A stretch of DNA of 36,033 nt. Origin: a virus. Where the stretch lies: IMG/VR virus record IMGVR_UViG_3300045988_125363, positions 1 to 36,033 of that record; one strand, given 5' to 3'. This document shows positions 1-35,608 of the stretch, one piece after another. The first letter of the stretch is position 1; the number at the start of each line of letters is the position of its first letter. The position numbers and the translations under genes were made by a program. Under the pieces are notes generated by a model that was not told the origin of the DNA, did not search any database, and saw only the letters and a list, made by a program, of their open reading frames with translations.

Positions 1-119
1 TCCACCGATTTTTGGGTCACACTCTGCATGATGTACAGCGATTACTGCGCCGTGGCCAAAGAGTACGGGGCCGACACCCCCGCCTTTTATGCTGATATGG
101 CAGCAGCCTTCCTGCACGA
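1..119. repeat. Terminal direct repeat copy 1 (119 bp), identical to 35915..36033
   Basis: Base-by-base comparison of the window start (tccaccgatttttgggtcac...ccttcctgcacga) with the window end. Confidence 0.95.
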
Positions 120-177
120 CAAAGACGCTGTAGACAACAAGCTCGTGGAGTACTGGGAACACATTCCTAAATCCTGA
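1..177 (+). CDS. 3' part of the junction-spanning hypothetical gene (same gene as 35609..36033; 160 aa once the overlap is collapsed)
   Basis: Frame 1 is open from nt 1 to TGA at 175..177 (...DFWVTLCMMYSDYCAVAKEYGADTPAFYADMAAAFLHDKDAVDNKLVEYWEHIPKS). It continues the frame of the ORF starting at ATG 35609. Confidence 0.7.
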   Translation, partial: STDFWVTLCMMYSDYCAVAKEYGADTPAFYADMAAAFLHDKDAVDNKLVEYWEHIPKS

Positions 178-197
178 CGACTTTTTGCAGACTTCGG
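175..197 (+). repeat. Direct repeat DR1 TGACGACTTTTTGCAGAC-T-TCGG (22/23 identical to 372..394); candidate integrase arm-type site
   Basis: Seen directly. Both copies contain TTTGCAG, which also occurs at 229..235, with TTTGCAA at 239..245. Confidence 0.85.
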
Positions 198-263
198 GAA
201 AGCGATTATGTGCTGGTATCCGCATTTATTTGCAGGTATTTGCAAATCGCAAAGAAACAGAAA

Positions 264-308
264 GCCCGCATGAATGCTGGAAAATCCAGTTTTCATGCGG
301 GTTTTGTT
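264..308. terminator. Strong intrinsic terminator-like hairpin (bidirectional appearance)
   Basis: 10-bp arms cccgcatgaa (265..274) / ttcatgcggg (292..301) with a nested ctgga-aaa-tccag hairpin, followed by TTTTGTT. An A/T-rich run on the other side gives minus-strand function too. Confidence 0.75.
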
Positions 309-362: not shown

Positions 363-1547
363 TCAGTCTTTTGACGACTTTTTGCAGACCTCGGTGTCTG
401 CTCTGTCTGCTCTTTTGCTCACATACTCATCCAACTGGGCAAAGTACCTTTCATCCTCCGACTCGCGCAGCTGCTGATACACCCGGCGGGTCGTTGTGAT
501 ATCCGCATGGCCCATGAGCTTCTGCGCGACCATATCCGGCACGCCTGCATAGAAAAGGTTAGAGGCGTAGAGGTGCCGGAACTGGTGGGCGGTGACAACT
601 GCCTTCCATTTGTAGTAGGTTCGCACCTGGTCTGGATGGCCTTTGACCTTGGCGTTGATCTCCAGCGGCGTGCACAGGCCCAAAGGACGGCAGTACATGG
701 CCCACTCCCAATCGTAACGCGACTGTGACAGCGGCTCTGCCTTGCCGGAGAGCACATACTCCCATGGCTTGTGGAGCCTTTTCCTTTGGCCCAGTGCGGG
801 CCGCAGAGGCGTCAAGATCGGCACATCTCGGTACGCCTTTTCTGACTTTAGCGTTTCCAGATAAGGGCGGTTGTGCTCCCACGGCATCGCCCGGCGCACG
901 TGGATCAGTCCGGCTTCGAGGTCTACGTCTTCCCAGCGGAGCCCGTTTGCTTCGCCTATGCGGAGGCCTGTATACTCAAAAAGCTGGGCCCAGAACCCGC
1001 ACCCGTCCGGGTGGGCGTTGATGATGTCACACTGCTCCTTGGTGGGCTCTTCCCGCTTGCCGCGCTTCATCCCGGCGGGCACCTCGGACAAAAGCACCGG
1101 GTTGCCTGTGCCGTGGAAGTTGGAGCACCAGTAGCGGAAAACGCACGACATCACACTGCGCGCGTTCGTGATGGTATGTAAGCTTTTACCGTCTACCTTC
1201 ATCTTTTCCCAGTAGCTGCTGATGCTCTGCGCGTCGATATCGGCCATGCGCAGATCACCAAAGCTTTCCAAAAACTGAGGAAGGTATTTGCGGTAGGAGC
1301 TTATTGTACCACGTTTGACGGGCTTTGTCGAGCCCGTAATGTAATTTTCGTAGGCCTCGGCCACCTCTCGGAACGTCGGCCCGGCGGCTTCCTGCTCATC
1401 CTGCCGGAGCATCTCATCCCGGGCGGCTTCATATTTTGCCGTTGCCTCTGTCACCGTGTACCCGAAAAAGTGCTTGGTGCTGCCGTCCGGCATCTTTCGC
1501 TTTATCTCATAGCGGCCATCTTCACGTTTTGTCTTTTTTCGTGGCAT
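363..1547 (-). CDS. int: Tyrosine recombinase / phage integrase (394 aa)
   Basis: ORF-track 363..1802 trimmed to ATG 1547 (MPRKKTKREDGRYEIK...) behind a GGGAGGGAG RBS. It has an arm-binding-type N-terminus and the motifs TGLRIGEANGLRWEDVD, AHQFRHLYAS and MGHADITTTRRVYQQL (R...HxxR...Y). Confidence 0.95.
   Translation of the reverse strand: MPRKKTKREDGRYEIKRKMPDGSTKHFFGYTVTEATAKYEAARDEMLRQDEQEAAGPTFREVAEAYENYITGSTKPVKRGTISSYRKYLPQFLESFGDLRMADIDAQSISSYWEKMKVDGKSLHTITNARSVMSCVFRYWCSNFHGTGNPVLLSEVPAGMKRGKREEPTKEQCDIINAHPDGCGFWAQLFEYTGLRIGEANGLRWEDVDLEAGLIHVRRAMPWEHNRPYLETLKSEKAYRDVPILTPLRPALGQRKRLHKPWEYVLSGKAEPLSQSRYDWEWAMYCRPLGLCTPLEINAKVKGHPDQVRTYYKWKAVVTAHQFRHLYASNLFYAGVPDMVAQKLMGHADITTTRRVYQQLRESEDERYFAQLDEYVSKRADRADTEVCKKSSKD
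372..394 (+). repeat. Direct repeat DR2 TGACGACTTTTTGCAGAC-C-TCGG (inside the 3' end of int)
   Basis: Seen directly; partner of 175..197, 197 bp away. The pair flanks the terminator and the tRNA-like fragment. Confidence 0.85.
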
Positions 1548-2148
1548 CGTCTGCTCCCTCCCTTGTGACTGAGTACGCTGTCTTGTCGGCCATAGCGGCG
1601 GCCTTGCCGCAGTTGTAAGCCTGCCGCAGGAGCGCCATGATGGGCTGCGGGGTAGCGTTGGGGTCTGAGTCGGCGCCCTTGGCCTGAGCCATCTCGTAGT
1701 CGTCGATGATGGCACCGCAGTGCGACACGCGAGCCGCCAGCGGGCAATGGAGGTTGGCCAGCATCTCGGTGAGAACAGCAAGGTGATCTGAGCCATGGTC
1801 ACCGTAGCGGAGATAGATCAGGGCATTGATCTCATACATACTCGCCTCATCCAGCGCCTCGTGGAGGATTTTCCGCTTTTCCGCGTCGCCCAGGTCGTCC
1901 TCCAGGTGCTCCAGCAGGCCGGGGTGGATACAGGCATCCACATACCGTGTAGCAGACACCCCGCAGCACATAAACCACTTTAGGATCATGGGGCTTGGCG
2001 GCATCTTTGCGCCCCTCTCCCACGCCGCAATGGTGGGGCGGCTCAAGCCCATCCGGCTGGCCAGCTTGTCCTGGCTTATCCCGGCATGAGCCCGTGCGCT
2101 TATCAACGCTTTTGATACTCGTATCGCGTATTCATCCGCCTTATTCAC
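1522..2148 (-). CDS. XRE-family HTH regulator with a ~140-aa C-terminal domain; candidate lysogeny repressor
   Basis: GTG start at 2148 with a GAGGTGA RBS. HTH segment GISQDKLASRMGLSRPTIAAWERG. Overlaps the int start by 26 nt and is divergent from the small rightward ORFs at 2268. Confidence 0.8.
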   Translation of the reverse strand: MNKADEYAIRVSKALISARAHAGISQDKLASRMGLSRPTIAAWERGAKMPPSPMILKWFMCCGVSATRYVDACIHPGLLEHLEDDLGDAEKRKILHEALDEASMYEINALIYLRYGDHGSDHLAVLTEMLANLHCPLAARVSHCGAIIDDYEMAQAKGADSDPNATPQPIMALLRQAYNCGKAAAMADKTAYSVTREGADDATKKDKT

Positions 2149-2387: not shown

Positions 2388-2606
2388 ATGGCGTGTGACC
2401 ACAACACCATCATCCAGCTGCTGGCCCCGTTTACCCATCAAGCTGCGCTGCGCATCGTCTACCACCTCGCCCGTGCCGGGGCCCCGGTGGAGCTGTACGA
2501 GGACGCGGCCCGCATCCTGACCCGGGCCGCTGAGGACAAAGCCGCAGGCCGCAACCCCGGCGATCGGGTGCGGTTCATCAACAACACAACGCTGGAGGAA
2601 GTCTGA
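2388..2606 (+). CDS. Hypothetical protein (72 aa)
   Basis: ORF-track entry. GGGAGGG RBS 5 nt upstream. No recognisable motif. Confidence 0.55.
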   Translation: MACDHNTIIQLLAPFTHQAALRIVYHLARAGAPVELYEDAARILTRAAEDKAAGRNPGDRVRFINNTTLEEV

Positions 2607-2647: not shown

Positions 2648-2668
2648 GTGTCCACTGTGGACACTTTT
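2648..2668 (-). repeat. 21-nt element AAAAGTGTCCACAGTGGACAC, copy 1 (17-bp perfect palindrome GTGTCCAC-N-GTGGACAC); terminator-like on the plus strand
   Basis: The plus strand reads gtgtccactgtggacacTTTT. The identical 21-mer occurs at 14245..14265 and 30459..30479. Confidence 0.9.
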
Positions 2669-3302
2669 ACATGTGGATGCTGTCATAAGTCAGCGTGTGC
2701 CCGTCCCAAATAAAATTCTCACCATTTCCCAGATACACCGGGAACTTCGTAAAGAAAACCGTTCCTTCCGAAAATTGCAGCGGGAGATTTGCAATCCTTG
2801 CATAATGCAGATTATAGAGCCTACCGTTTTGTGCTATCTGGCAGTATACAACCTCAGTGCATCTTATCTCCCCATAGTTGGGGTCATCCCACGCTGGTTG
2901 TTTAGGGACTTCGTTTGACACAGAAACATACTTTCCATCTATTTTGCGCACAGGCGAGTATTTCAGCGTATAGCCATCCCAGACATAATCCGTCCCGCTG
3001 GTTTTATCATCCGGGAACGAATCAAAGTAGACGTAGGTATTATCTGGATTGGCTGGCTTTTCAGGCCCGGCGGGTTTAATGCCTTTTTTCTCCACAAAAC
3101 TGTTGTCCTCAAATCGTCCGTCGTGGACGGTTCCATCCTCGGCAATTATGCAAACGTACTTTTTGCCCGGCACCGTGATGGAAGCATTTGGGCTTTGTAC
3201 TGAGGCCCCGCCGCCAGAGCAGCCCGTGAGTGAAACGGCCACCGCAAGCACCATAATGCACAAACCAGCAATCGCAATTTTTCCAGTTTTTACAAATTTC
3301 AT
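2667..3302 (-). CDS. Prophage lipoprotein, candidate superinfection-exclusion protein (211 aa)
   Basis: Signal peptide plus lipobox (MKFVKTGKIAIAGLCIMVLAVAVSLTGC). AGAGGA RBS. Two internal repeats end in DYVWDGYTLKY and NFIWDGHTLTY. Confidence 0.85.
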   Translation of the reverse strand: MKFVKTGKIAIAGLCIMVLAVAVSLTGCSGGGASVQSPNASITVPGKKYVCIIAEDGTVHDGRFEDNSFVEKKGIKPAGPEKPANPDNTYVYFDSFPDDKTSGTDYVWDGYTLKYSPVRKIDGKYVSVSNEVPKQPAWDDPNYGEIRCTEVVYCQIAQNGRLYNLHYARIANLPLQFSEGTVFFTKFPVYLGNGENFIWDGHTLTYDSIHM

Positions 3303-3511
3303 GTTTTTTCCTCTGAATGCTTGATTTTTCTCTATAATTGTTGTAATATCGAACCAGCAAATACAACCTAAAGGGGTGTTTTGAAATGACCGACAACGAA
3401 TTTTTGGAATACTTAAAATCTCACCCCGAACTGTGGGATGTTGTTATGAAAATTCTTCGGCCTTAGAGGCCCGCACTAAATCCGCCCGCCACGACAGACG
3501 GGCTCTTTTAT

Positions 3512-4804
3512 TTACACTTTGCTCCTTATCTGCTCTTTTAGCTTCAGCGATTCACGATACTGTTCCGCTGGAGCAAGCTCCACAAACTCCACCGAGCGAT
3601 CATAGTTTTCCTTCACGACTTTCTTTATTTCGTCCAGCGTGACGTTGAAGAACTCCCGACGCTGGTTAACAAAGTTCAGCTTACGGTCGGCGAAAGCGTT
3701 ATGCAATGCTGCTTCCAACCGAGGTGCATCATCCGAGAAGATCATAGCATGGACATCAAAGTTGAACGGAACGGACGCATCTCCAAGCTCATCCACGCGA
3801 TCCTGCGGGTCAAGGCGGCGAGTCATGCCGATTTTATACACGTTTTCGCCAAAAGCGCCAATATTGGAGATAACATAAACGTACCCTGCCCGCTGATTTG
3901 CTTCTCGATAGTCAACATCTTTGAACTCTTTGTCGATTCTATCCAGCTGTGCCTCAAGCTCTGCTTTCTTTTCCTCAATTGCCGTGCGATCGGTTTCAGA
4001 AGCAGTTTCAAGCTGGGCGATAATACGCTGTAATGCATTCTGATAATGCTGCTGCTCTTTTTCCAACTTTTTACGTTCTTCCTCAATCTCTTTAGCCAGT
4101 TTTGCTTCTTCCCGCATTCTAGCACGGGCTTCTTTCTGCTCCTCTTTTTCTTGCTGTTTTTTCTGAGCATATTCAAATGCAAGGTGCAGCTCTTCGATTT
4201 TGAGCTGATAATACTGCGGCACAATCCCGACACTCATGATTGCTCCAAGCTTTGAGATAGCATCGCGAGAAGAAGTAATCCGCTTTTCGCTGGCCGCAAT
4301 ATTATTATATTTGACGTGTTCTATTACATCATCGCATTCGGAGTTGAACGCCCGGAGAAGTAGTTTCTGCATATCCGCAACCATCTTGTTTCCTTTGGCC
4401 GCATTACCATTTACAGTCCAGCTGGAACTTCCAGTAACAGCGGTTTTGTTTTTTACCATATTCTTTTGCTTTGCACGAATCTCCAGCAGGTGGGCCTTAT
4501 ATTCGTCGGAGTTCATAAATGAATATCGCGGCGTATAGATTCCAAAACTCTGCATGAGGACGGTTTCTTCCGTTTCAACTATTTCGCTCTTGGTCTTCTG
4601 CAAGTCTGCAATAGCGTTGTTTAATTCGTCTTGCCGTTGCTTCAAATGTGTTTCAACCAACGATAATTCCGCTTTGCTCTCCTCGATTTCTTGATTGATT
4701 TTCTCTAATGTCCGGCTCTCCGAGGGCATAGAATCCCTTAACCGCTGCAATTCTTCATTCAGACGATCGATTTCTTCTTTTTCTTTTTTACCAAACAATG
4801 ACAT
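3512..4804 (-). CDS. DUF4041-like + T5orf172/Mug113 (GIY-YIG-like) domain protein, candidate anti-phage nuclease (430 aa)
   Basis: Coiled-coil N-terminus. Central FGIYTPRYSF...KLLLRAFNSECD...YYQLKIEELHLAFEY block. Charged coil. C-terminal GYVYVISN...VYKIGMTRRLDPQDRVDEL...LHNAFADRKLN...REFF. GGGAGGAA RBS. 35-40% GC in two hand-counted lines. Confidence 0.8.
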   Translation of the reverse strand: MSLFGKKEKEEIDRLNEELQRLRDSMPSESRTLEKINQEIEESKAELSLVETHLKQRQDELNNAIADLQKTKSEIVETEETVLMQSFGIYTPRYSFMNSDEYKAHLLEIRAKQKNMVKNKTAVTGSSSWTVNGNAAKGNKMVADMQKLLLRAFNSECDDVIEHVKYNNIAASEKRITSSRDAISKLGAIMSVGIVPQYYQLKIEELHLAFEYAQKKQQEKEEQKEARARMREEAKLAKEIEEERKKLEKEQQHYQNALQRIIAQLETASETDRTAIEEKKAELEAQLDRIDKEFKDVDYREANQRAGYVYVISNIGAFGENVYKIGMTRRLDPQDRVDELGDASVPFNFDVHAMIFSDDAPRLEAALHNAFADRKLNFVNQRREFFNVTLDEIKKVVKENYDRSVEFVELAPAEQYRESLKLKEQIRSKV

Positions 4805-4869: not shown

Positions 4870-5217
4870 CTACTTTTTTCCGTTCTCTAGTACAGCCAAA
4901 GCTGCCGCTCTAGCTGCGGCTCTGGCTTCTGGCGACGCTTCTCTATATGCATTCTCTACATCCGGCCACTCGTAACCGAGCTCACTTTTCAAAGTGGGCT
5001 CTTTTTTTGTGCCCATGAGCTCCTCAACGGGGATCCCGAGCACTTCTGAAATTTTTGCCCACCGGCGACGTGTGGGACTGGCTCTTCCTTTTAGCCAATC
5101 ACTCACATTACCGGTAGACGCACCGATTTTGTCCGCAAATTCTTTTTGAGACATGTCAAGCTTATCAAGCGTCTCAAAAAGCTTAGGACAACGGCATTCT
5201 TCTGGAATATTTGCCAT
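4870..5217 (-). CDS. XRE/Cro-C1-type HTH regulator (115 aa)
   Basis: MSQKEFADKIGASTGNVSDWLKGRASP HTH. AAGGTAAGGTGA RBS. Divergent from the 5218..5603 regulatory region. Confidence 0.85.
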   Translation of the reverse strand: MANIPEECRCPKLFETLDKLDMSQKEFADKIGASTGNVSDWLKGRASPTRRRWAKISEVLGIPVEELMGTKKEPTLKSELGYEWPDVENAYREASPEARAAARAAALAVLENGKK

Positions 5218-22450: not shown

Positions 22451-22818
22451 TCGCATCGGATGAGGACGCACTGATTTGCGATTTTGCCCAGTACTACCAT
22501 GTACTGGACTGGCGCAGCATCCCGGTGCGCCTTGCGGCCACGCTGGCCGCAGGGCTGCCGCCGGAAAGCCGCAGCCGGATGCGCTTTGCCGGACAAGAGG
22601 TCCCGATGGAGACCCAAATGCAGGCGGCCATGGTGGACAGCCTGCGGCATATCAGCTGGGAAATGAGCGGACGCCCGGGAGAGCACCCCGCCTCTCTGCT
22701 GGCGGCCATGGTGGGCGAGGATGCAGAGGCCGACGGCGGCCTGGTACAGAGCTTTGACAGCCCGGAAGAGTACGAGGCTGCCATGCGTGCGGCGGAAGGA
22801 GGTGTAAGCTGTGGCTGA
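22172..22818 (+). CDS. Tail assembly chaperone -1 frameshift fusion (gpGT-like)
   Basis: The -1 frame is open from 22399 to 22818 and reads ...KKLLCLADLIASDEDALICDFAQYYHVLDWRSIP...; it has no start codon/RBS near its 5' end (first ATG at 22525). Confidence 0.65.
22423..22429 (+). promoter_or_regulatory. Slippery heptamer A_AAA_AAC for a -1 programmed frameshift
   Basis: The zero frame reads GGA AAA AAC. The heptamer lies 21 nt before the gpG stop. Confidence 0.65.
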
Positions 22819-25696
22819 TAAAATTGAGCTTGCAAAAGCTTATGTGCAGATCATCCCCTCGGCTGAGGGTATCAAAGGCAAGATCACCGAGGAGATGGGC
22901 GGTGATATCTCCAGCGCTGGCGTCGAACTCGGAAAAGCTTTTGGCGGAAAGATCGCAAGCACCCTGAAAACCGTGCTGAGCGCAGCGGCTATTGGCAAGA
23001 CCATCGCCGCGTCCGTCAATGCGGGCGGAGCGCTGGAGCAGAGCCTGGGCGGCATCGAAACGCTGTTTAAGGACAGCGCAGGCATCGTAAAGCAGAACGC
23101 GGCGCAGGCCTATAAAACGGCGGGTCTGAGCGCCAACGACTACATGGAGCAGACTACCAGCTTTGCGGCCAGCCTGCTGTCCAGTCTGGGCAACAACACC
23201 AAGGCAGCGGCCATCGTGGCCGATATGGCGATGACCGATATGGCCGACAACGCCAACAAAATGGGCACCGATATGGCGGCCATCCAGAACGCCTACCAGG
23301 GCTTTGCCAAGCAGAACTATACCATGCTGGACAACCTCAAGCTGGGCTATGGCGGCACACAAGCCGAGATGCAGCGCCTGCTGGAGGACGCTTCCAAGTT
23401 GTCCGGCCAGAAGTATGAGCTGGGCAACCTGGCCGATATGTACAACGCCATCCACGTCATTCAGGGTGAGCTGGACATCACGGGCACCACAGCCAAGGAA
23501 GCTGCCACGACCCTGTCGGGCTCGTTCTCGGCCATGAGCGCCTCGTTCCAGAACGTGCTCGGCACTCTGGCCACGGGCGGAGATCTGACCTCTTCCCTTC
23601 AGGCGCTGACGGACACGGCCCGCACCTACCTGCTGGACAACCTTCTCCCCGCTGTCGGAAACGTGGTGGCGGGTATCCCGGAGGTCATCGCCACGCTGGC
23701 CCCCAATATTTTGCAAAGCGGCACGGAGCTGATGCAGTCTCTGGCCTCCGGCTTTACCGAGGGCGTGCCCGCCTTCTTGGCCTCTGCCCTGCCCCAGCTG
23801 TTGCAGTTTACGGAGGAGCTGCGGGCCAATTTCGGGCAGTTCGTCTCTGCCGGCATCGACCTCATCCTCAGCCTCGCAAACGGCATCGTGGAGGGTCTGC
23901 CCCAGCTCTTTGCCTACATCCCGGATATCGTCATCAACATTGCCGGGCTCATCAACGACAACGCCCCTAAGCTGCTGGAAGGCGGCTTCAAGCTTGTTGT
24001 CGAGTTGGGCAAAGGCATCCTCCAAGCTGCCACAATGATTCCACAATATTTTGGGGAAATCATGGAAGCCACTTTGGCGGTGCTTTCGGCAATCAATTGG
24101 GTAAACATCGGAGCAGGTTTGATAAAAGGTCTGGCCGATGGCATTAAAAGCATGGCAAACCTTGTCACGGATGCTTTCAAAAAGGCAGTTGCTGGCGGGC
24201 TAAACTGGCTCAAAACTTTGCCGTCTCAGTTGGGCAACATTGCCATAAACATGTATCACAGCTTTATAAACGGCTTGACTGGAAAAGCGATGGTCACTGC
24301 AACTGCAAAATCTGGCCTAACACTTTTTAACCCTGGTTCCGGGAACTCCAAGGTTCCCCATATCACGGCGGAGGATGAGGGCATTGCAGACAAATCAGAG
24401 CACAACTCCATGATCATGGACAACCTCACCGCCGCCAGCAACGCCAAAGCTCTGGCCGAGGCGGCCAAGTCGTCCGGCACAGCGGCAAAGGTGGCGTCTT
24501 CTGCGGCCAAAAAGACCGCTGAGGATACCAAAAAGCTCACCAGCTCCCTCAAGGACACCACGACGGAGATCGTGCAGGGGTCCGGCAACATTGTGGGCAG
24601 CATCAAGCGCGTGACGGAAACGGCCAACAGCCTTTACGACGTGTACGACGGCACCACCAAAAAGCTGAAGGGCACAGCCAACGAGACCACAAAGACCATC
24701 ACCGACACATGGACTGAGATCATCAACGGCACCGAAAAGACCGTGAAGCAGGTCACGACCATTGCGGCAGATGGCTCCAAGAAGGTGGAGAAGAGCGTCG
24801 AAAATGTGCTGCTTTCCGTCACCGAAACGCAAAGCCGCATCGACGCGGCTTTGAACCAGGCGAAAAGCGAATGGTCCAGCGGCGTCTTTGGCCTGTTCCG
24901 CAGCGTCGTCTCTGATATCAAGAGCAAGGACTGGAGCGGTCTGGCTTTGGACTTTGCAAAGCTGATCTGGGGGCAGGTGGATCAGAACCAGCGCCAGATC
25001 ATCGCCAAATGGGCCGCCGATGCTCTCAGCGCCGTCAACCAGGCATACGCGGGCGGCGGTCTGGGCTCTGCGGCGTCTTCCATCAAAGCCATTTTCTCTG
25101 ATGGCCTTGCGGCGGGCGTTACGGACGCCGGGACGGCGGTACAAAGCTTCTCTGCCATCCTGGACGGTCTGGGCAAGTCCGGCGGCGTCGGCAGCGCCCT
25201 TTCCGGCATTGCTTCCAGCTTCTCCGGCATGGCTGCCAGCATCATGTCCAGCCTGTCCGGCATCGTCTCGCTGGTGATGGCGCACCCCATCCTGGCGGCC
25301 ATCCTGGGCGTGACGGCGCTGGCTGGCGGCATCGCTTTGGGCTCTGCCCTCAAAAAGAAGAGCTCCTCTGCGGCCTCTGCCGTCACCAGCAGCACCCTGA
25401 GCTATAAAGACATCCAGGACGCCTACTGGTACGGCAACCAGCGGGCCTATGCGGGCTATGATCTGCTTTCGGACCCTTACGGATTCAATCCCCGAGGCTC
25501 CGGCTCCCAGCTCAACGCCTACCAGCAGAAAATGCAGCAGTCCGTGGACGCGCTGTACAACGTGGTGCAGCAGTACCTTCCCCAGACGGCAAACACCGTC
25601 ATCAAGCTGGACGACGGCACGCTGGTGGGTGCTCTGGCACCGTCCATCGACGCGCAGCTGGGCCAGCTGGCCACACTGGCAGAAAGGGGCAACTAA
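22811..25696 (+). CDS. Tape measure protein (961 aa)
   Basis: GTG start behind GGAAGGAGGTG. Long Ala/Gly/Leu-rich helical protein after the chaperone pair. Confidence 0.9.
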   Translation: MADKIELAKAYVQIIPSAEGIKGKITEEMGGDISSAGVELGKAFGGKIASTLKTVLSAAAIGKTIAASVNAGGALEQSLGGIETLFKDSAGIVKQNAAQAYKTAGLSANDYMEQTTSFAASLLSSLGNNTKAAAIVADMAMTDMADNANKMGTDMAAIQNAYQGFAKQNYTMLDNLKLGYGGTQAEMQRLLEDASKLSGQKYELGNLADMYNAIHVIQGELDITGTTAKEAATTLSGSFSAMSASFQNVLGTLATGGDLTSSLQALTDTARTYLLDNLLPAVGNVVAGIPEVIATLAPNILQSGTELMQSLASGFTEGVPAFLASALPQLLQFTEELRANFGQFVSAGIDLILSLANGIVEGLPQLFAYIPDIVINIAGLINDNAPKLLEGGFKLVVELGKGILQAATMIPQYFGEIMEATLAVLSAINWVNIGAGLIKGLADGIKSMANLVTDAFKKAVAGGLNWLKTLPSQLGNIAINMYHSFINGLTGKAMVTATAKSGLTLFNPGSGNSKVPHITAEDEGIADKSEHNSMIMDNLTAASNAKALAEAAKSSGTAAKVASSAAKKTAEDTKKLTSSLKDTTTEIVQGSGNIVGSIKRVTETANSLYDVYDGTTKKLKGTANETTKTITDTWTEIINGTEKTVKQVTTIAADGSKKVEKSVENVLLSVTETQSRIDAALNQAKSEWSSGVFGLFRSVVSDIKSKDWSGLALDFAKLIWGQVDQNQRQIIAKWAADALSAVNQAYAGGGLGSAASSIKAIFSDGLAAGVTDAGTAVQSFSAILDGLGKSGGVGSALSGIASSFSGMAASIMSSLSGIVSLVMAHPILAAILGVTALAGGIALGSALKKKSSSAASAVTSSTLSYKDIQDAYWYGNQRAYAGYDLLSDPYGFNPRGSGSQLNAYQQKMQQSVDALYNVVQQYLPQTANTVIKLDDGTLVGALAPSIDAQLGQLATLAERGN

Positions 25697-25699
25697 ACC

Positions 25700-27823
25700 A
25701 TGTATCGTATCTATGCGTATCCCTTTGGCAACCCCGAGGACAAGCGGTTGCTGCATCCTCGGCCCAAAGGACGCGGGGATGCGGAAAGCTTGGCAACGTT
25801 TGTGCTGTCGCCCAAACTCACCCGTGAGGTGAGCAAGGGCGGCAGCCTTACTTTTACCATGGCCCGCACACACCCGCAGTACAACAATCTGCAAAAAATG
25901 TCCACCTGCATCACGGTGGAGCAAAGCGACTTTGACGCAAACGGCAACGAAAGCACCCCCAAAGAGATTTGGCGCGGGCGCGTTCTGAGCCATGAAGCCG
26001 ACTGGTACAACCGCAGGGCGGTGTACTGCGAAGGAGCCCTCTCCTACTTCAACGATTCGGCCATCACGCCCTTCAACTACGAGGGGAAGTTGGCGCAGTT
26101 TTTGCAGCACCTCATCAGCGCCCACAACCAGCAGTGCGGCGAGATGCGCATGAAGCGCTTTGAGCTGGGCACCGTGACCGCCGCGCTGGGTGATCTGGTG
26201 GTGCACTACGGCGATATGGACGCCTACGGCGTGGGCGAGGACTACGGCAGCACCTGGGACATCATCGACAAGATGGTGCTCAAGGTATACGGCGGCTATG
26301 CCTACTGCACCTACAACCCCACAACGGGCAACAACGTCTTAAATTATTGCGACCAGGCTTTCGAGGCCGACAGGCTGGTAAACCAAACCATCGAGTACGG
26401 CGTGAATTTGCTGGATTTCACCGAGAAGACGGACACCAACTCGATGTTTACCCGGGTCTACCCCACGGGCAACAAGCACACCGTGACCCGCACAGAGTGG
26501 ATTTGGAAATTTTTGTGGTGGGGCAAAACCCAAGAGGTGGCCGACCACGAAGAGCGGTGGAGTATCAAAGAAACCTCTGCTGAGGCCATCAAAAAGTACA
26601 AACCGGAAGGCTACTCTTATCGTCTGTATCAGGCTGACGGAGACTGCAACTGGATCCAGAACGACGCGGCGGTGGCAAAATTCGGCGTCATCTCCAAAGT
26701 GGCCGACTACGACGCCGACGACCCAGACACCCTCTTCGGCGCCGCTGTGCAGGACTTACAGAAAAACTCGTTCATGACCATGAGCTACACCGTGAAGGCG
26801 GTGGACCTTGTGGACGCGGGCAACATTGGCTTTGACAAAGACCGCCTGACCTTTGCCAGCTATGCCCATATTATCAGCAAGCCCCACAGCATCGACGTGG
26901 TGATGCTCTGCACAAAGCTGGTGGAGCCCTTGGACGACCCCAGCAAGAAGGAATTTACCTTCGGCATGACGCGCCAGACCCTGACCGACCGACAGGTGGC
27001 GAACCTCGGCAAAACCAACCTCTTGGAGGAACAGACCTCCACGTCGGAGAAGTATTCCGGCAACATTTACAAGCTCGTGGACAAGTACCAGAAGGAGAAC
27101 AAGGCAGGCATTGAGGAAGCGGCCAAAACGGCCACCAACTACCTCGCGTTTGACAAAAACACGGGCCTGAAAGTGGGGCATGAGTCCCTCGCCGGAAAGT
27201 ACGTCCAAATTTCCAACGATGGCATTTTGGTCACCGACGGCAGCAGCCGGGTCAACGTCAAGTCCGGCTCCATCTCCATCACCGACGGCAACGGCAGCTG
27301 CACCATTGATTCCGGCAAAATCACGTTTTACGGCATCCGAAACATGGATATCACTCCATCCGGCCTTAAATTTGGTTCCTACATCAATATTCCGAGCAAT
27401 CCGGGATATCTCGCAATTCCGTTCGATTCCAAAAACTGCAATTACGTTTGGTTGATGTTTGAGAGCAGCGGCACTTACTACAAAGAGCATTTCTGGAAGC
27501 CCACAGAGTCCTATACACAGCGCGTCGGCACGGCCTATGCCGTCATCCCGGTAACGGGCCAGCCTGTGACGCTCTCATTCCCATGGAACACCCTCCAGCG
27601 CCGTGACGTTGCCGTTTTTGACAACGAGATTCGCATTTATCAGGGCTATCGCCGCTATTTGCAGTATACCCTGAACGACTATTTCCCGGCAAGCTCCAAT
27701 GGCCTCACGGTCACATTCAAACTGCAAATGGACAGTCTGTCTTCTCAGACCACAAACATCTCGGATTCTTGGGAGGTTGACGACTCTGTTTGTATCCCGA
27801 CCAAAGTTTTCGGCTTCATGTAA
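25700..27823 (+). CDS. Tail-tip / baseplate hub protein (Tal-like, prophage-tail N-terminal region), 707 aa
   Basis: N-terminal pattern LSPKLTREVSKGGSLTFTM..THPQYNNLQKMSTCITVEQ...IEYGVNLLDF...VYPTG. Follows the tape measure gene. Confidence 0.6.
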   Translation: MYRIYAYPFGNPEDKRLLHPRPKGRGDAESLATFVLSPKLTREVSKGGSLTFTMARTHPQYNNLQKMSTCITVEQSDFDANGNESTPKEIWRGRVLSHEADWYNRRAVYCEGALSYFNDSAITPFNYEGKLAQFLQHLISAHNQQCGEMRMKRFELGTVTAALGDLVVHYGDMDAYGVGEDYGSTWDIIDKMVLKVYGGYAYCTYNPTTGNNVLNYCDQAFEADRLVNQTIEYGVNLLDFTEKTDTNSMFTRVYPTGNKHTVTRTEWIWKFLWWGKTQEVADHEERWSIKETSAEAIKKYKPEGYSYRLYQADGDCNWIQNDAAVAKFGVISKVADYDADDPDTLFGAAVQDLQKNSFMTMSYTVKAVDLVDAGNIGFDKDRLTFASYAHIISKPHSIDVVMLCTKLVEPLDDPSKKEFTFGMTRQTLTDRQVANLGKTNLLEEQTSTSEKYSGNIYKLVDKYQKENKAGIEEAAKTATNYLAFDKNTGLKVGHESLAGKYVQISNDGILVTDGSSRVNVKSGSISITDGNGSCTIDSGKITFYGIRNMDITPSGLKFGSYINIPSNPGYLAIPFDSKNCNYVWLMFESSGTYYKEHFWKPTESYTQRVGTAYAVIPVTGQPVTLSFPWNTLQRRDVAVFDNEIRIYQGYRRYLQYTLNDYFPASSNGLTVTFKLQMDSLSSQTTNISDSWEVDDSVCIPTKVFGFM

Positions 27824-27835
27824 GGGGTGAGATTT

Positions 27836-28126
27836 ATGCTTATTGATGGGCAAAACTGCAAGTTCGTTGCAAAAGTAGCATCGGACGGGAGGATTTACAA
27901 CGGTGTATGGCTCGCAACCGACCACGACGCCGATTTCTTCCCGCCCGGCACTGTCATCTTCGACACTTTTCCCACCGACGAGACAGCCAAAGACGGCGGC
28001 AGCGATTACAAGTGGGACGGCGAGCATCTGATTTATGATCCTGTGTCCGATGAGGAGCGGGAACGCCGACGGCAAGAAAGCCTTGCAGAGTACGCCGCCA
28101 AATACGGCTCCGGGGGTGATGCTTGA
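27836..28126 (+). CDS. Small tail-module protein (96 aa), tail-fibre-assembly / XkdW-like by pattern
   Basis: ORF-track 27827 (GTG) trimmed to ATG 27836 behind AAGGGGTGA. DGRIYNG...PPGTVIFDTFPTDETAKDGGSDYKWDGEHLIYDPVSDEE. Confidence 0.5.
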   Translation: MLIDGQNCKFVAKVASDGRIYNGVWLATDHDADFFPPGTVIFDTFPTDETAKDGGSDYKWDGEHLIYDPVSDEERERRRQESLAEYAAKYGSGGDA

Positions 28127-28623
28127 TGCTGCAAGGCGCACAGATCGGCAGTATCCACACCCTGAAGGACCTGGGGCTGTACATGAAAGTGGGCAGCCCC
28201 ACCATTTCCGGCGCAGAGCCTGAGACGATGCTTGTCAACGTCCCGGGCTCCGATTTTATGCTGGATCTGTCCCGGGCGCTGGACGGCGAGGTGCACTACA
28301 AGCAGCGCACCATCAAGATGGAGCTGCTGTGCAAGGCCAAAAAGAGCCAGTGGAGCACCATCCAGAGCGCCCTCGAAAACGCGTTGCAGGGCCAGTGGCT
28401 GCGCTGCATCTTTGATGAGGACAGCACATGGTACTGGCTGGGCCTGTGGCGGGTGGACGTGGTGGAGCGCGGGCGCACGGAGATCACCTTCAGCATCGAG
28501 GGCACCTGCAACCCCTACAAGCGCAACATCACCGCCGATGCGGGCGCGGACTGGTTGTGGGATACCTTTGATTTTGAGACCGATACCATCTACGACACAC
28601 CGACAGGAGTGATAAGCTTATGA
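28126..28623 (+). CDS. Distal-tail-protein-like (Dit N-terminal-domain pattern), 165 aa
   Basis: IGSIHTLKDLGLYMKVGSPTISGAEPETMLVNVPGSDFMLDLSRALDGEVHYKQRTI resembles the siphovirus tail component N-terminal domain. Confidence 0.45.
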   Translation: MLQGAQIGSIHTLKDLGLYMKVGSPTISGAEPETMLVNVPGSDFMLDLSRALDGEVHYKQRTIKMELLCKAKKSQWSTIQSALENALQGQWLRCIFDEDSTWYWLGLWRVDVVERGRTEITFSIEGTCNPYKRNITADAGADWLWDTFDFETDTIYDTPTGVISL

Positions 28624-29834
28624 CCAAGACCTTTGAAGAGGTCATCTCAGGCATCCGCAAGGCCAAAAAGGGCGTGGAGGTCCGGGAAGACCTCGCACAG
28701 ATGGGCGAGTACTGCCAGCAGTTCACCCAAGAAGCCGGCACCCGGGCCGACGCGGCCAAGGCCGCCGCTGAGACTGCTGCCACCAACGCCAAGGCCAGCG
28801 AGAAGAAAGCCACGGACGCTGTGGCAGGCATCGAGCAGACTAAAACCGACGCGGTGCAGGCGGTGCAGAACGCCCAGACCACGGCCACCACCGCCGTACA
28901 GCAGGCACAGACCGCTGCCACCGACGCGGTGACGGCCAAGCAGACCGAGGCCGTCCAGGCCGTGGACGATGAGCGCGACGCCGCTTTGCAGCAGGTGGCC
29001 GACTCCACCCAAGCCGCCCAGACCGCCGCTGCCAACGCGGCTGCATCCGAACAGACGGCACAGGCCAGCAAAGAGGCTGCTGCCACCTCTGCCGGGGACG
29101 CTGCAAGCTCCGCCACCGCCGCCTCCGGCAGCGCCAGCGCGGCGGCCACCTCGGAGAGCAACGCCGCATCCAGCGCCCAGAGCGCCAATACCGACGCCGA
29201 CCGGGCCGAGGCCGCTGCGTTGCTGGCTGGCACCCGGGCGAACACGGACAAAACCCTCAAGACCGAAAACGCCCCCGCCGACGCTGCTGCCGTGGGTACA
29301 GCGCTTGACGAAAAGGCGAACAAGGACGTCATCTACGACAGCGACGGCAACATTATTTTTTACAGCAAAGCCGCTGTGGATGAGCTGCTGGCGGGAAAAC
29401 TTGGTCTGCACGATACCGCAGACAATTCCAACAAATTGGGCGGCTATAACCTTCGGCTTTCTGACCATCCGCTTTCTATAAGCGTTCTTGTTCAAACTGT
29501 CGATAAAGACGGCAGTATGCACATTGATTTCAGGAGTGATGCCAGCATCGGATTAACAGCCATTGTCGCCTACGGCCCCGGCTACATCCGTTTTGGCGAC
29601 GGGACACAGATTTGCTATGGAGCGGCTTTTAACGGCCAAATTCCAGAAGTCGTCACCTACCCTGTTGCATTTGTTGCTACACCGTTCACTACGGTTTCTA
29701 GGCACTGGGGTGGGGCATCTGGCGCGACTAATACCGAATTCGTGTGGATTTATGATACCAGTAGCACTGGTTTCAAAATCGGCTCCAATAGTGGTATTTA
29801 TGCGCACTGGATTTCCGCTGGCCGCTGGAAGTAA
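28620..29834 (+). CDS. Tail fibre / receptor-binding protein (404 aa)
   Basis: AGGAG RBS. Long Ala/Thr/Gln-rich coiled stalk and a globular C-terminal domain ending ...GFKIGSNSGIYAHWISAGRWK. Confidence 0.7.
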   Translation: MTKTFEEVISGIRKAKKGVEVREDLAQMGEYCQQFTQEAGTRADAAKAAAETAATNAKASEKKATDAVAGIEQTKTDAVQAVQNAQTTATTAVQQAQTAATDAVTAKQTEAVQAVDDERDAALQQVADSTQAAQTAAANAAASEQTAQASKEAAATSAGDAASSATAASGSASAAATSESNAASSAQSANTDADRAEAAALLAGTRANTDKTLKTENAPADAAAVGTALDEKANKDVIYDSDGNIIFYSKAAVDELLAGKLGLHDTADNSNKLGGYNLRLSDHPLSISVLVQTVDKDGSMHIDFRSDASIGLTAIVAYGPGYIRFGDGTQICYGAAFNGQIPEVVTYPVAFVATPFTTVSRHWGGASGATNTEFVWIYDTSSTGFKIGSNSGIYAHWISAGRWK

Positions 29835-29849
29835 GGAGGAGGTACACAC

Positions 29850-30200
29850 ATGAACACTATCACTTTGGGCTACACCCTCGCAAAGCCTGTGGTGACACAG
29901 GAAGAGTGCACCGCTTACGCCGCGATGGCGCTGGCCGTGAACAAGCACAATGCCGCCTGTGGGGACGGAGACACCCGGTGGATGATTGAGGACGGCAAGA
30001 GCGGTTACGCGGTGGCCGCTGTGCCGCCCCCGACCGCTGAGGAGCTGGCCACGCAGGAAAAGGCAAAGGAAGCCGCTGCCGCCGAAGCAAAGAAAAAGGC
30101 AGAGCTGGAAGCAGTGCCGGGGCGCATGGACGCTCTGGAAGCGGCAAACAACGACCTTGTGCTCATGATGGCTGATTTGATTGGAGGAAGCAACGAATGA
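29850..30200 (+). CDS. Hypothetical tail-associated protein (116 aa)
   Basis: Strong AAGGAGGAGG RBS. Function unknown. Confidence 0.5.
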   Translation: MNTITLGYTLAKPVVTQEECTAYAAMALAVNKHNAACGDGDTRWMIEDGKSGYAVAAVPPPTAEELATQEKAKEAAAAEAKKKAELEAVPGRMDALEAANNDLVLMMADLIGGSNE

Positions 30201-30363: not shown

Positions 30364-31167
30364 ATGAATGCATTTTTCGAGTTTATCTCCAAGCTGCTGG
30401 CGGCCCTCTCCCACGCTGCCGGAGACAAGGCAGAGGAGCCGGACGCCCCCGCTCCTGAAAAAGTGTCCACAGTGGACACCGTGCCCGGCTGGACGGGTGA
30501 GCCTCCCTACCGCTATCTCGACGTGAGCCGCTATCAGGGCAAAATCACCCTCGACGGCTGGCGCAAGGTCAAAGCGGCTGGCTACAAGGGGGCCATGCTC
30601 AAGACGGTATCCACCAACCGCAAGCTTTCCAAGCGGGCAGACGGCCTGTACATCGACCCCACCTTTGAGACCAACTACCGCAACGCCCAGGCTGCCGGGC
30701 TGGACGTGGGCGTCTATTACTACACCTACGCCACCAGCGAGGCTATGGCCGATGCAGAGCTTGCCCTTGTGCGGAAAGCGGTACGCGGAAAAGAGCTCAC
30801 CATGCCCCTCGCGGTGGACGTGGAGGAAAACAGCATTAAGCAGCTGTCCACCCTCGACCTCACAAACCTTACCGCCTACGCGCTGGAACAGGTGGAGAAA
30901 ATGGGCTTTTACGCCCAGCTGTACACCTACACCCACTACTCCAACACGGAGCTGGACATGGGCCGCCTTGCAAACCGCTGGGACGTCTGGCTTGCTGACT
31001 ACACGGGCAAAACTCCCGCCGTCGGCTACCACTACAACGCCCACCAGCACACCAGCAAGGGCCGCGTGCCTGGCATCTCCGGCAACGTTGACCTCAACGT
31101 GACCACCGTCAACTACCCGAAAATCATCCGCAAGAAGGGTCTGACCCGTCTTCGGGAGGGCAAATGA
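30364..31167 (+). CDS. Endolysin, GH25 muramidase with a ~45-aa N-terminal extension
   Basis: YLDVSRYQGKI...KAAGYKGAMLK...DPTFETNYRNAQAAGLDVGVYYYTYA...AVDVEE GH25 motifs. Confidence 0.9.
   Translation: MNAFFEFISKLLAALSHAAGDKAEEPDAPAPEKVSTVDTVPGWTGEPPYRYLDVSRYQGKITLDGWRKVKAAGYKGAMLKTVSTNRKLSKRADGLYIDPTFETNYRNAQAAGLDVGVYYYTYATSEAMADAELALVRKAVRGKELTMPLAVDVEENSIKQLSTLDLTNLTAYALEQVEKMGFYAQLYTYTHYSNTELDMGRLANRWDVWLADYTGKTPAVGYHYNAHQHTSKGRVPGISGNVDLNVTTVNYPKIIRKKGLTRLREGK
30459..30479 (+). repeat. 21-nt element AAAAGTGTCCACAGTGGACAC, copy 3 (inside the endolysin N-terminal extension)
   Basis: Seen directly. Encodes ...EKVSTVDT... Confidence 0.9.
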
Positions 31168-35605: not shown

Positions 35606-35608
35606 GCC

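What the first reader, a model, noticed from the sequence alone, without database searches (positions are those of the whole stretch)
2667..3302. The lipoprotein is built from two copies of a domain that the phage also encodes in its own tail module
The mature lipoprotein contains two repeats. Both align by eye with the 96-aa protein encoded at 27836..28126, which lies between the Tal-like and Dit-like genes.
- Tail protein: DGRIYNG...PPGTVIFDTFPTDETAKDGGSDYKWDGEHLIYDP
- Lipoprotein repeat 2: NGRLYNL...SEGTVFFTKFPVYLGNGENFIWDGHTLTYDS
- Lipoprotein repeat 1: DGTVHDG...NTYVYFDSFPDDKTSGTDYVWDGYTLKYSP

The pattern is a surface-tethered tandem duplication of a tail-fibre-associated/assembly-type domain. 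That suggests a decoy or competitor mechanism for superinfection exclusion, for instance binding the receptor, the incoming tail tip or the fibre. This differs from the HTH-repeat Ltp paradigm. The nucleotide sequences are diverged, so it is not a recent intragenomic copy.
Basis: seen in the sequence. Interest (0 to 1): 0.65.

Follow-up and report, generated by a model that had tools for sequence, protein, structure and literature searches.

The report
Prophage lipoprotein built from tail-chaperone-like domains
A gut-bacterial prophage carries a surface lipoprotein made of two diverged copies of a small domain that the same phage also uses, as a single copy, in a protein paired with the tip of its tail; this probably helps block infection by related phages, but that has not been tested.

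Summary
The 211-aa lipoprotein (2667..3302, minus strand) has two ~70-residue beta domains, and both are homologous to the 96-aa protein at 27836..28126. This holds for BLASTP (E about 1e-7), shuffle tests (z about 12), profile-profile comparison (99.3% and 98.8% over the whole domain) and predicted folds.

The domain is an undescribed family with no Pfam, PHROG, NCBIfam, PADLOC or PDB sequence match. It occurs in two architectures in Faecalibacterium-type gut phages:
- Single-domain proteins of 66-126 aa, always encoded 2-11 nt after the tail-tip (Tal) gene. They are present only when Tal carries one particular C-terminal domain (50/50 against 0/29 loci).
- Rare lipoproteins with 2-3 tandem copies, always in the lysogeny module. 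In the window this lies next to a PD-Lambda-1 defence gene.

The small protein has the layout of a tail-fibre assembly chaperone: a beta-sandwich followed by a C-terminal helix. Its best PDB match is Pam3 gp25, but the match is weak.

Best reading, at about 40% confidence: a membrane-tethered decoy that binds the Tal tip of incoming related phages, which is superinfection exclusion by a route other than Ltp. Function is inferred only. I rate it a new variant of a known kind.

The parts
2667..3302 (-). Lipoprotein gene (211 aa), made of a signal peptide, a lipobox, a short linker and two beta domains
   Evidence: ORF. Family alignment with invariant Cys28. dN/dS below 1 in every region against L001 and L201. 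Model pLDDT above 90 for residues 41-210.
3219..3302 (-). Signal peptide and lipobox (residues 1-28, LTG|C)
   Evidence: Read from the sequence. Conserved in all 10 lipoproteins of the family. There are only weak sub-threshold matches to lipoprotein leader models.
2937..3185 (-). Repeat 1 (residues 40-122), carrying a 13-residue insertion (KGIKPAGPEKPAN) between strands 2 and 3
   Evidence: HMM envelope. BLASTP E 8e-8 to the small protein. hhalign 99.3%.
2670..2876 (-). Repeat 2 (residues 143-211); its N-terminal half is the most variable part among alleles
   Evidence: HMM envelope. BLASTP E 6e-8. hhalign 98.8%. pN 0.35 in residues 143-185 against 0.02 in repeat 1, window vs L001.
3303..3511 (-). 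Intergenic region upstream of the lipoprotein gene, with the RBS AGAGGA and a possible promoter (TTGCTG-N18-TATAGA)
   Evidence: Read by eye from the sequence. The consensus scan found no strong minus-strand promoter here, so independent transcription is not shown.
27836..28126 (+). Small single-domain protein (96 aa): beta domain at residues 1-70, then a C-terminal helix at 72-90
   Evidence: RBS and ATG. Homologues start at the same Met. Model pLDDT 87.6. Best PDB match is Pam3 gp25, a fibre chaperone, with E 0.23.
25700..27823 (+). Tal-like tail-tip protein (707 aa)
   Evidence: PF06605 Prophage_tail and phrog_3558. TIGR01665.
27077..27823 (+). Tal C-terminal domain (residues ~460-707), the likely partner of the small protein
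   Evidence: It is the only part of Tal conserved in distant phages that carry the small gene, and it always sits at the very C-terminus. The small gene is present in 50/50 loci with this domain and 0/29 without it. Pairwise divergence of the small protein tracks this domain: r 0.91, partial r 0.86.
28126..28623 (+). Dit-like 166-aa protein, translationally coupled to the small gene (TGATG overlap)
   Evidence: phrog_33 Dit, E 2e-7. The overlap is read from the sequence. It lies downstream of the small gene in 37 of 60 unique loci.
3512..4804 (-). Neighbouring defence gene (PD-Lambda-1 type, DUF4041 + T5orf172)
   Evidence: PADLOC PD-Lambda-1, E 7e-163. Pfam. The slot is variable in relatives.
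4870..5217 (-). cI-like HTH repressor, same strand as the lipoprotein gene
   Evidence: HTH_3 and repressor PHROGs.
363..2148 (-). Integrase gene and second HTH gene of the lysogeny module
   Evidence: Phage_integrase and HTH_3. The same order is seen in all relatives.

Best explanation
**What the domain family is (shown).** The phage family has a ~70-residue beta-sandwich domain that occurs in two forms.

**The single-copy form (linkage shown, role inferred).**
- The domain is followed by a C-terminal helix.
- It is encoded immediately after the tail-tip protein Tal.
- It is tied to one particular Tal C-terminal domain.
- It most likely binds that domain, either as a minimal Tfa-type assembly chaperone or as a tip accessory protein.

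**The lipoprotein form (architecture shown).**
- It is encoded in the lysogeny module.
- It carries two of these domains (three in some relatives), without the helix.
- The domains sit behind a lipid anchor and a linker, so they are displayed on the outer face of the cytoplasmic membrane of the lysogen.

**Proposed mechanism (inferred, not shown).** The tethered domains bind the Tal C-terminal tip of an incoming phage of the same group. This would cap the tip or hold it in a non-productive state at the membrane, so that DNA entry fails. It would be superinfection exclusion by mimicking the phage's own tail-tip partner.

Neither binding to Tal nor exclusion of phages has been shown.
For: **Homology of the repeats to the small protein:**

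**Lipoprotein signal:** conserved in all 10 members.

**The gene is under purifying selection:**

**Position of the lipoprotein gene.**
- In all 8 independent contexts the order is cI-like repressor, variable cargo slot, lipoprotein, HTH, integrase, all on the repressor/integrase strand.
- This is the position of ltp in TP-J34. That gene is transcribed from the prophage and blocks DNA injection (PMC3952083).
- The neighbouring slot holds PD-Lambda-1 in the window (E 7e-163) and other defence-like genes in relatives.
- In a phage with 98-99% identical flanks, the lipoprotein gene is swapped for a different membrane protein.

**Position of the small gene.**
- It lies 2-11 nt after Tal in 57 of 57 evaluable unique cases.
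- Only the Tal C-terminal ~200 residues are shared across distant carriers.
- The small gene is present in 50/50 loci with that domain and absent from 29/29 loci that have a related Tal N-terminal part but lack that C-terminal domain. In those loci Dit follows Tal directly.
- Its divergence tracks the Tal C-terminal domain (partial r 0.86), not the upstream part of Tal (partial r 0.16).

**Chaperone-like layout of the small protein.**
- It has five strands, a short helix and a C-terminal helix.
- Its top PDB match is Pam3 gp25. In gp25 the N-terminal beta-sandwich grips the distal fibre and covers its receptor-binding loops, and the C-terminal helices form the trimer (PMC9608196).
- Weaker BFVD matches include tail fibre assembly and tail assembly chaperone proteins and DUF4376.
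- Some members have long coiled-coil-like C-terminal tails. The lipoprotein repeats lack the helix.

**Direct co-occurrence in two distantly related phages.**
- In the window itself.
- In IMG/VR contig 3300045988_187152. Its lipoprotein (L010) is only 28% identical to the window's, and its small gene follows Tal in L230.
Against: - No experiment or interaction model supports binding.
- The structural link to Tfa-type chaperones is weak: Foldseek E 0.23 and TM 0.43 for gp25, and E 0.02-0.7 for the BFVD hits. No sequence model of Tfa, Caudo_TAP or DUF4376 matches.
- Lipoprotein repeats are no closer to their own phage's small protein than to others (rank 15-38 of 85). There is therefore no sign of self-specific mimicry.
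- Two of two direct co-occurrences is not significant when about 63% of related loci carry the small gene.
- The co-divergence of the small gene with the Tal C-terminal domain could reflect physical adjacency of the DNA alone.
- No clear promoter was found for the lipoprotein gene.
- The lipoprotein is rare: 1 IMG/VR contig against 100 or more with the small gene. A strongly beneficial exclusion function would be expected to be more widespread.
Confidence: 0.4

Rival explanations
1. **Receptor masking.** The small protein stays on the virion tip and helps bind the host receptor, as reported for Mu Tfa. The lipoprotein's copies of the same domain bind that receptor on the lysogen and hide it. 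This would protect the lysogen, or stop progeny from being lost on cell debris, as T5 Llp and Cor do for FhuA.
For: - Some Tfa-type chaperones remain in mature virions and contribute to receptor recognition (introduction of PMC9608196).
- The conserved aromatic and acidic motif (DY.WDG..L.Y.P) is shared by both forms. It would suit a common small ligand such as a glycan.
- Several relatives have long Ser-rich linkers of 40-110 residues that could reach into the wall.
- Receptor-blocking lipoproteins are an established kind (10.64898/2026.03.26.714494).
Against: - The small gene is tied to one Tal domain rather than to a host lineage. This points first to a protein partner.
- The window's own linker is short, about 18 residues, which keeps the domains at the membrane surface.
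- No carbohydrate-binding family matches.
- Nothing shows that the small protein is present in virions.
Confidence: 0.2
2. **Shared fold, unrelated job.** The lipoprotein is a lysogenic-conversion gene that serves the host, for example in adhesion, wall or nutrient binding, or protection from something other than phage. It reuses a compact beta domain of phage origin and has no functional link to the tail.
For: - The repeats are old and strongly diverged: 11-30% identity to each other and 34-41% to small proteins.
- There is no preferential similarity to the resident small protein.
- The lipoprotein is rare and sporadic.
- Morons with host-directed functions are common at this genome position (general knowledge; PMC3594210 appears in the results but was not read).
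Against: - All 8 known contexts are phages of one group. Of the 4 whose tail type could be assessed, 2 carry the small gene directly and 2 by inference.
- The neighbouring genes are anti-phage genes.
- Each repeat stays closer to the small-protein consensus than to its sister repeats. This is what continued constraint toward the same binding function would produce, although slow evolution of the small proteins would look the same.
Confidence: 0.2
3. **Chance or artefact.** The similarity is a short motif match or a compositional effect, or the ORF is not a real gene.
For: BLASTP between the two repeats aligns only the last 29 residues.
Against: - Full-domain profile-profile matches at 98-99% probability.
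- Shuffle z-scores of about 12.
- Confident and concordant structure models.
- dN/dS below 1.
- The family is conserved across several contigs and samples.
Confidence: 0.02

Closest known systems
Ltp-type superinfection-exclusion lipoproteins (Streptococcus thermophilus phage TP-J34)
   Same: - Encoded in the lysogeny module, between the integrase and the repressor.
- Lipid-anchored on the outer face of the cytoplasmic membrane of a monoderm host.
- The active part consists of two tandem repeat domains.
- Ltp targets a component of the incoming tail, the tape measure protein, and blocks DNA injection (PMC3952083).
   Different: - Ltp repeats are helix-turn-helix-like domains. Here the repeats are five-stranded beta domains with no Pfam Ltp match.
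- Ltp has no homologue among the phage's own virion or assembly genes, whereas this protein does.
- The presumed target here is the Tal C-terminal domain, not the tape measure protein.
- No activity has been measured here.
Tfa-type tail fibre assembly chaperones (Pam3 gp25, Mu Tfa, lambda Tfa; Pfam Caudo_TAP and DUF4376)
   Same: For the small protein:
- The gene sits directly downstream of the gene whose C-terminal tip it would serve.
- It has an N-terminal beta-sandwich plus C-terminal helix or helices.
- The N-terminal domain is variable and matched to the client.
- gp25 is its best PDB fold match.
   Different: - No sequence-level membership.
- The fold match is weak (E 0.23).
- At 96 aa it is much smaller, with a single helix.
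- The client would be a siphophage Tal extension rather than a myophage fibre.
- Known Tfa proteins are cytoplasmic or virion proteins. None is known as a tandem array on a secreted lipoprotein.
Receptor-blocking lipoproteins Llp (T5) and Cor (phi80/N15)
   Same: Small phage-encoded lipoproteins that protect the infected or lysogenic cell and the phage progeny by acting at the cell surface (10.64898/2026.03.26.714494).
   Different: - They sit in the outer membrane of diderms and bind FhuA.
- They show no sequence or domain relationship. The only Cor PHROG hit covers the signal peptide, at E 0.097.
- They do not share a domain with a tail-module protein.
Prophage-encoded mimics of surface-machine components (phage FimU-like pilins in Pseudomonas)
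   Same: A prophage expresses a homologue of a structural or assembly component in order to interfere with phage entry (PMC12952977, abstract seen).
   Different: There the mimicked component is a host pilus subunit. Here it would be the phage's own tail-tip partner protein.

Membership tests
Ltp-type Sie lipoproteins | Signal peptide with a lipobox, giving a lipoprotein on the outer face of the membrane | tested here: met
   The LTG|C lipobox follows a basic and hydrophobic leader. The cysteine is invariant in all 10 homologues. This is based on sequence only. No dedicated predictor was available.
Ltp-type Sie lipoproteins | Gene in the lysogeny module, on the integrase/repressor strand | tested here: met
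   Seen in the window and in 7 further contexts.
Ltp-type Sie lipoproteins | Two HTH-like repeat domains (Ltp family sequence signature) | tested here: not met
   No Pfam family matches at E up to 1. The model is all-beta in the repeats.
Ltp-type Sie lipoproteins | Blocks DNA injection by binding the tape measure protein | not testable with these tools
   This needs infection and binding assays.
Tfa-type tail fibre assembly chaperones | Encoded immediately downstream of the fibre or tip gene it serves, and inherited with that gene's C-terminal domain | tested here: met
   57/57 small genes lie 2-11 nt after Tal. The small gene is present in 50/50 loci with the Tal C-terminal domain and 0/29 without it. 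Partial r with that domain is 0.86.
Tfa-type tail fibre assembly chaperones | N-terminal client-binding beta-sandwich plus a C-terminal helical oligomerisation part | tested here: met
   In the model, five strands and a short helix are followed by a helix at 72-90, with pLDDT 87.6. The layout of gp25 is taken from PMC9608196. Oligomerisation was not tested.
Tfa-type tail fibre assembly chaperones | Sequence match to Caudo_TAP, DUF4376 or the tail-fibre-assembly PHROGs | tested here: not met
   No hit for the window proteins or for 39 domain copies. No PDB sequence hit.
Tfa-type tail fibre assembly chaperones | Fold similarity to a solved Tfa-type chaperone | tested here: inconclusive
   7ypx chain a (gp25) is the top PDB match, but at E 0.23, probability 0.77 and TM 0.43. 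BFVD hits to Tfa, tail assembly chaperone and DUF4376 have E 0.02-0.7.
Tfa-type tail fibre assembly chaperones | Binds its client and is needed for the client's folding | not testable with these tools
   This needs co-expression or pull-down experiments.
Llp/Cor receptor-blocking lipoproteins | Sequence membership | tested here: not met
   The only hit is a signal-peptide match to phrog_1119 Cor, at E 0.097.
Known anti-phage defence proteins (PADLOC-DB) | Match to any defence-system model | tested here: not met
   No families match the lipoprotein or the small protein. The neighbouring gene matches PD-Lambda-1.

The most novel reading that the evidence does not exclude
A temperate phage has turned the client-binding domain of its own tail-tip chaperone into a tandem, membrane-tethered decoy. 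The decoy caps the receptor-binding tip (the Tal C-terminal domain) of incoming related phages. This would be a class of superinfection exclusion in which specificity is borrowed from a virion-assembly interface. It would therefore follow tail-tip cassettes as they are exchanged between phages.
Probability: 0.3. Interest if true: 0.8.

Novelty: new variant of a known kind. Interest (0 to 1): 0.62.

Why it matters
- Surface lipoproteins that exclude superinfecting phages are known, but only a few families have a known target. None is reported to derive from the phage's own tail-assembly machinery. My literature searches found nothing of this kind.
- If the decoy reading is right, exclusion specificity could be predicted from sequence: a lipoprotein repeat would match a Tal C-terminal domain type.
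- It would also show how assembly interfaces can be reused as defence.
- It would give a testable handle on phage-phage competition in Faecalibacterium-type gut bacteria, for which almost no phage biology has been tested.
- Two results stand whatever the lipoprotein does:
  - a new domain family has been defined, together with a clean two-gene cassette (Tal C-terminal domain plus small protein) in more than 100 gut phage contigs;
  - a variable defence-cargo slot has been identified in the lysogeny module.

Tried and rejected
- **Word-indexed homology searches.** These found few relatives: 5 for the lipoprotein, 4 for the small protein and 7 for the domain alignment. The exhaustive profile search was needed.
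- **Twelve of its 37 hits were spurious.** They are long repeat proteins that match only the first hairpin, several times and weakly. Five of the six I checked hold unrelated Pfam families (SBBP propeller, Big_9/cadherin, galaxin, M23; a sub-threshold PapC_C match for P0044) and P0031 has none, so I set all twelve aside.
- **Family and structure libraries.** Pfam, PHROGs, NCBIfam, PADLOC and PDB sequence searches gave nothing for the domain. The Tal C-terminal domain also has no PHROG or PDB sequence match.
- **GenBank phages.** No homologue of the small protein, and only 23-28% identical Tal relatives. One DNA search failed because the query was too long.
- **The search for related loci.** Narrower alignments worked.
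- **Degenerate motif scan of 185,579 species genomes.** It gave 23 hits, of which only 2 were real: a Faecalibacterium MAG and a Clostridiales bin, both small genes. No lipoprotein was found there.
- **Reaching the tail module of contig 187152.** Walking along the contig by exact-pattern search gained only 5.5 kb. A Tal N-terminal query then reached it.
- **Walking the ENA contig of L085.** The presence of the small gene in L085 and L001 is therefore only inferred from DNA similarity to carriers.
- **Positive selection on the variable half of repeat 2.** Rejected, because synonymous divergence jumps there too. This indicates recombination, and omega is below 1.
- **Self-specific mimicry**, meaning a repeat that is closest to its own phage's small protein. 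Not found.
Full report
**1. What is in the window**

The window is a ~36 kb temperate siphophage genome with about 57% G+C.

The minus strand at the left end carries the lysogeny module:
- integrase (363..1802; the listed ORF is probably over-extended);
- an HTH protein (1522..2148);
- the lipoprotein gene (2667..3302);
- a 430-aa DUF4041/T5orf172 protein (3512..4804), which matches the PADLOC model PD-Lambda-1 at E 7e-163;
- a cI-like repressor (4870..5217).

The plus strand carries the tail module:
- tape measure (22811..25696);
- a Tal-like protein with Prophage_tail PF06605 (25700..27823);
- the small gene (27836..28126);
- a 166-aa Dit-like protein (28126..28623);
- a fibre (28620..29834);
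- a GH25 endolysin (30364..31167).

The two ends of the window are adjacent in related contigs, so the window is a circularly permuted whole genome. The only genome-collection relatives are a Faecalibacterium MAG and a Clostridiales bin. GenBank phages hold no close relative.

**2.

- **Sequence.** BLASTP aligns each half of the mature lipoprotein separately to the small protein, at E 8e-8 and 6e-8.
- **Shuffles.** Smith-Waterman scores are 10-12 standard deviations above 2000 shuffles. Across all six-frame ORFs of the window, the two proteins are each other's only cross-hit.
- **Profiles.**
  - Repeat-1-type profile vs small-protein profile: probability 99.3%, E 1e-20.
  - Repeat-2-type profile vs small-protein profile: 98.8%, E 5e-17.
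  - Both extend over 64 columns, which is the entire beta domain.
  - The two repeat types match each other less well: 97.8%, E 7e-13.
- **Structure.**
  - The AlphaFold models are confident, with pLDDT 87.6 for the small protein and above 90 for lipoprotein residues 41-210.
  - They share the same five-strand order.
  - The lipoprotein model's two best BFVD matches are members of the small-protein family, including one 98% identical in sequence to the window's small protein.
- **DNA.** No nucleotide similarity remains between the two genes.

**3. The domain family**

An exhaustive profile search of 1.84 billion representative proteins found 37 hits, of which about 25 are genuine. They fall into two architectures.

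- **Lipoproteins** (P0001-P0005, P0010-P0013).
  - Each has a lipoprotein leader.
  - The linker is often long and Ser-rich.
  - They carry two or three tandem domains.
  - The repeats are positionally orthologous between proteins. The window's repeats 1 and 2 correspond to repeats 2 and 3 of the three-repeat forms.
- **Single-domain proteins** of 66-126 aa, with the domain at the N-terminus and an acidic or helical tail.

No Pfam, PHROG, NCBIfam, PADLOC or PDB sequence model matches either class.

Each lipoprotein repeat is 34-41% identical to small proteins, but only 11-30% identical to the sister repeats in its own protein.

**4. What the small protein is tied to**

- In 57 of 57 evaluable unique cases, the small gene starts 2-11 nt after a Tal-type gene.
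- In distant carriers, including one with a 1741-aa Tal, the only part of Tal shared with the window is the last ~200 residues. That part always sits at the very C-terminus.
- I ran the converse test with 80 loci chosen by the Tal N-terminal part.
  - 50 of 50 with this C-terminal domain have the small gene.
  - 29 of 29 without it do not, counting one locus with only a marginal 22% match to the domain. In those loci the Dit-like gene follows Tal directly.
  - One further locus ends at the stop codon of Tal and could not be scored.
  - Caveat: the 29 are nearly identical to one another, so they count as one or a few lineages.
- Pairwise divergence of the small protein tracks the Tal C-terminal domain (r 0.91; partial r 0.86). 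It does not track the preceding Tal segment (partial r 0.16). Tight physical linkage could contribute to this result.
- The small gene is translationally coupled to the Dit-like gene through a TGATG overlap. The conserved C-terminal 'GGDA' of the small proteins is that gene's ribosome-binding site.

**5. What the small protein resembles**

Its model has a five-stranded beta-sandwich with a short helix, followed by a C-terminal helix.

The top match among 350,000 PDB chains is 7ypx chain a (E 0.23, probability 0.77, TM 0.43). This chain is Pam3 gp25, a 162-residue tail-fibre chaperone. According to PMC9608196:
- its N-terminal beta-sandwich (sheets of 2 and 3 strands plus a short helix) grips the distal fibre and covers the receptor-binding loops;
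- its C-terminal helices form the trimer.

Weaker BFVD matches include proteins named tail fiber assembly protein, tail assembly chaperone and DUF4376.

I therefore say the small protein works like a minimal Tfa-type chaperone or tip partner. I do not file it as a member of that family, because sequence membership was tested and not met.

**6. Where the lipoprotein sits**

All eight contexts recovered share one order: cI-like repressor, variable cargo slot, lipoprotein, two small opposite-strand ORFs, HTH, integrase. The eight are the window, L001, L085/L086, L088, L201, L202, L203 and L010.

The cargo slot holds:
- PD-Lambda-1 in the window;
- a DEDDh/BRCT protein (PDC-S48-like) in L001;
- HIRAN proteins in L201 and L202.

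In L059 the flanks are 98-99% identical to L010, but the lipoprotein gene is replaced by a Zn-ribbon/transmembrane/SHOCT-like protein.

The gene is under purifying selection, and there is a recombination breakpoint between the two repeats.

The lipoprotein is rare. The IMG/VR scans found one contig with it, against more than 100 with the small gene.

**7. Co-occurrence**

Both genes are seen directly in the window and in IMG/VR contig 3300045988_187152. There the three-repeat lipoprotein is in L010 and the small gene after Tal is in L230.

L001 and L085 belong to the same phage group by DNA similarity to carriers, but their tail modules could not be fetched.

About 63% of related loci carry the small gene in any case, so this co-occurrence fits a functional link but does not prove one.

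**8. Mechanism**

*Shown:*
- the shared domain;
- the lipoprotein architecture;
- the position of the lipoprotein gene in the lysogeny and defence neighbourhood;
- the cassette of Tal C-terminal domain plus small gene.

*Inferred:*
- the small protein binds the Tal C-terminal domain;
- the lipoprotein's helix-less copies, displayed at the membrane surface, bind the same domain on incoming phages and stop entry.

The parallel with Ltp is close in logic. Ltp is a lysogeny-module lipoprotein with two repeats that targets a tail component (PMC3952083). The fold and the origin differ.

The main rival is receptor masking, which applies if the small protein is a tip adhesin retained in the virion. 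A host-directed function with no link to the tail cannot be excluded.

**9. Verdict**

- This is a new protein family, and probably a new variant of lipoprotein-mediated superinfection exclusion.
- Function is untested.

Noticed in passing
window 1-305 and 35608-36033: The two ends of the window are adjacent in related contigs (L001, L085, L086). The window is therefore a circularly permuted, probably complete, ~36 kb phage genome rather than a prophage with host flanks.
   Followed up: partly
window 3512-4804 (minus strand): The gene next to the lipoprotein gene matches the PADLOC model PD-Lambda-1 (E 7e-163; DUF4041 + T5orf172). The same slot holds a DEDDh/BRCT protein (PDC-S48-like) in L001 and HIRAN proteins in L201 and L202, and is empty in L085. 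It is a variable defence-cargo slot between the repressor and the lipoprotein gene.
   Followed up: partly
L059 11604-12356, compared with L010 9623-10657: In a phage with 98-99% identical flanks, the lipoprotein gene is replaced by a 250-aa protein. By eye this protein has an N-terminal Zn-ribbon, a Gly-rich transmembrane segment and a SHOCT-like C-terminus. It may be an alternative surface or exclusion cassette.
   Followed up: no
window 22811-28623: The tail gene order is unusual: the tape measure gene is followed directly by Tal, and the small Dit-like gene (166 aa) comes after Tal and the small gene. One relative (L037) has the Dit-like gene in the usual place, before Tal.
   Followed up: partly
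window 28110-28128: The stop codon of the small gene overlaps the start of the Dit-like gene (TGATG). The conserved C-terminal 'GGDA' of many small proteins coincides with the ribosome-binding site of the next gene.
   Followed up: yes
window 29850-30200: The 116-aa ORF directly after the fibre gene has a faint match to a tail-fibre-assembly PHROG (phrog_188, E 0.06). The fibre may therefore have its own downstream chaperone, parallel to the Tal/small pair.
   Followed up: no
L085 19657-20694; also L030 and L034 around 14.1-15.8 kb: Relatives carry a reverse-transcriptase gene (RVT_1) next to the XkdX and lysin genes. This may be a diversity-generating retroelement acting on a tail gene. No such ORF was seen in the window.
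   Followed up: no
window 2667-3302 compared with L001 10001-10636: Synonymous divergence is 0.14 in repeat 1 and rises to 0.56-0.74 from residue ~123 onward. The alleles are therefore mosaics, recombined between the two repeats.
   Followed up: yes
window 363-1802 and 1522-2148: The listed 479-aa integrase ORF overlaps the HTH gene by about 280 nt. Relatives have integrases of 380-403 aa, so the true start is probably near 1540.
   Followed up: no
window 2388-2606 (plus strand): A 72-aa ORF lies on the strand opposite to the lysogeny genes, between the lipoprotein and HTH genes. Called genes of 67-78 aa, each with a ~37-aa neighbour, lie at the same position in every relative, but I did not compare their sequences. 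It has no family match.
   Followed up: no
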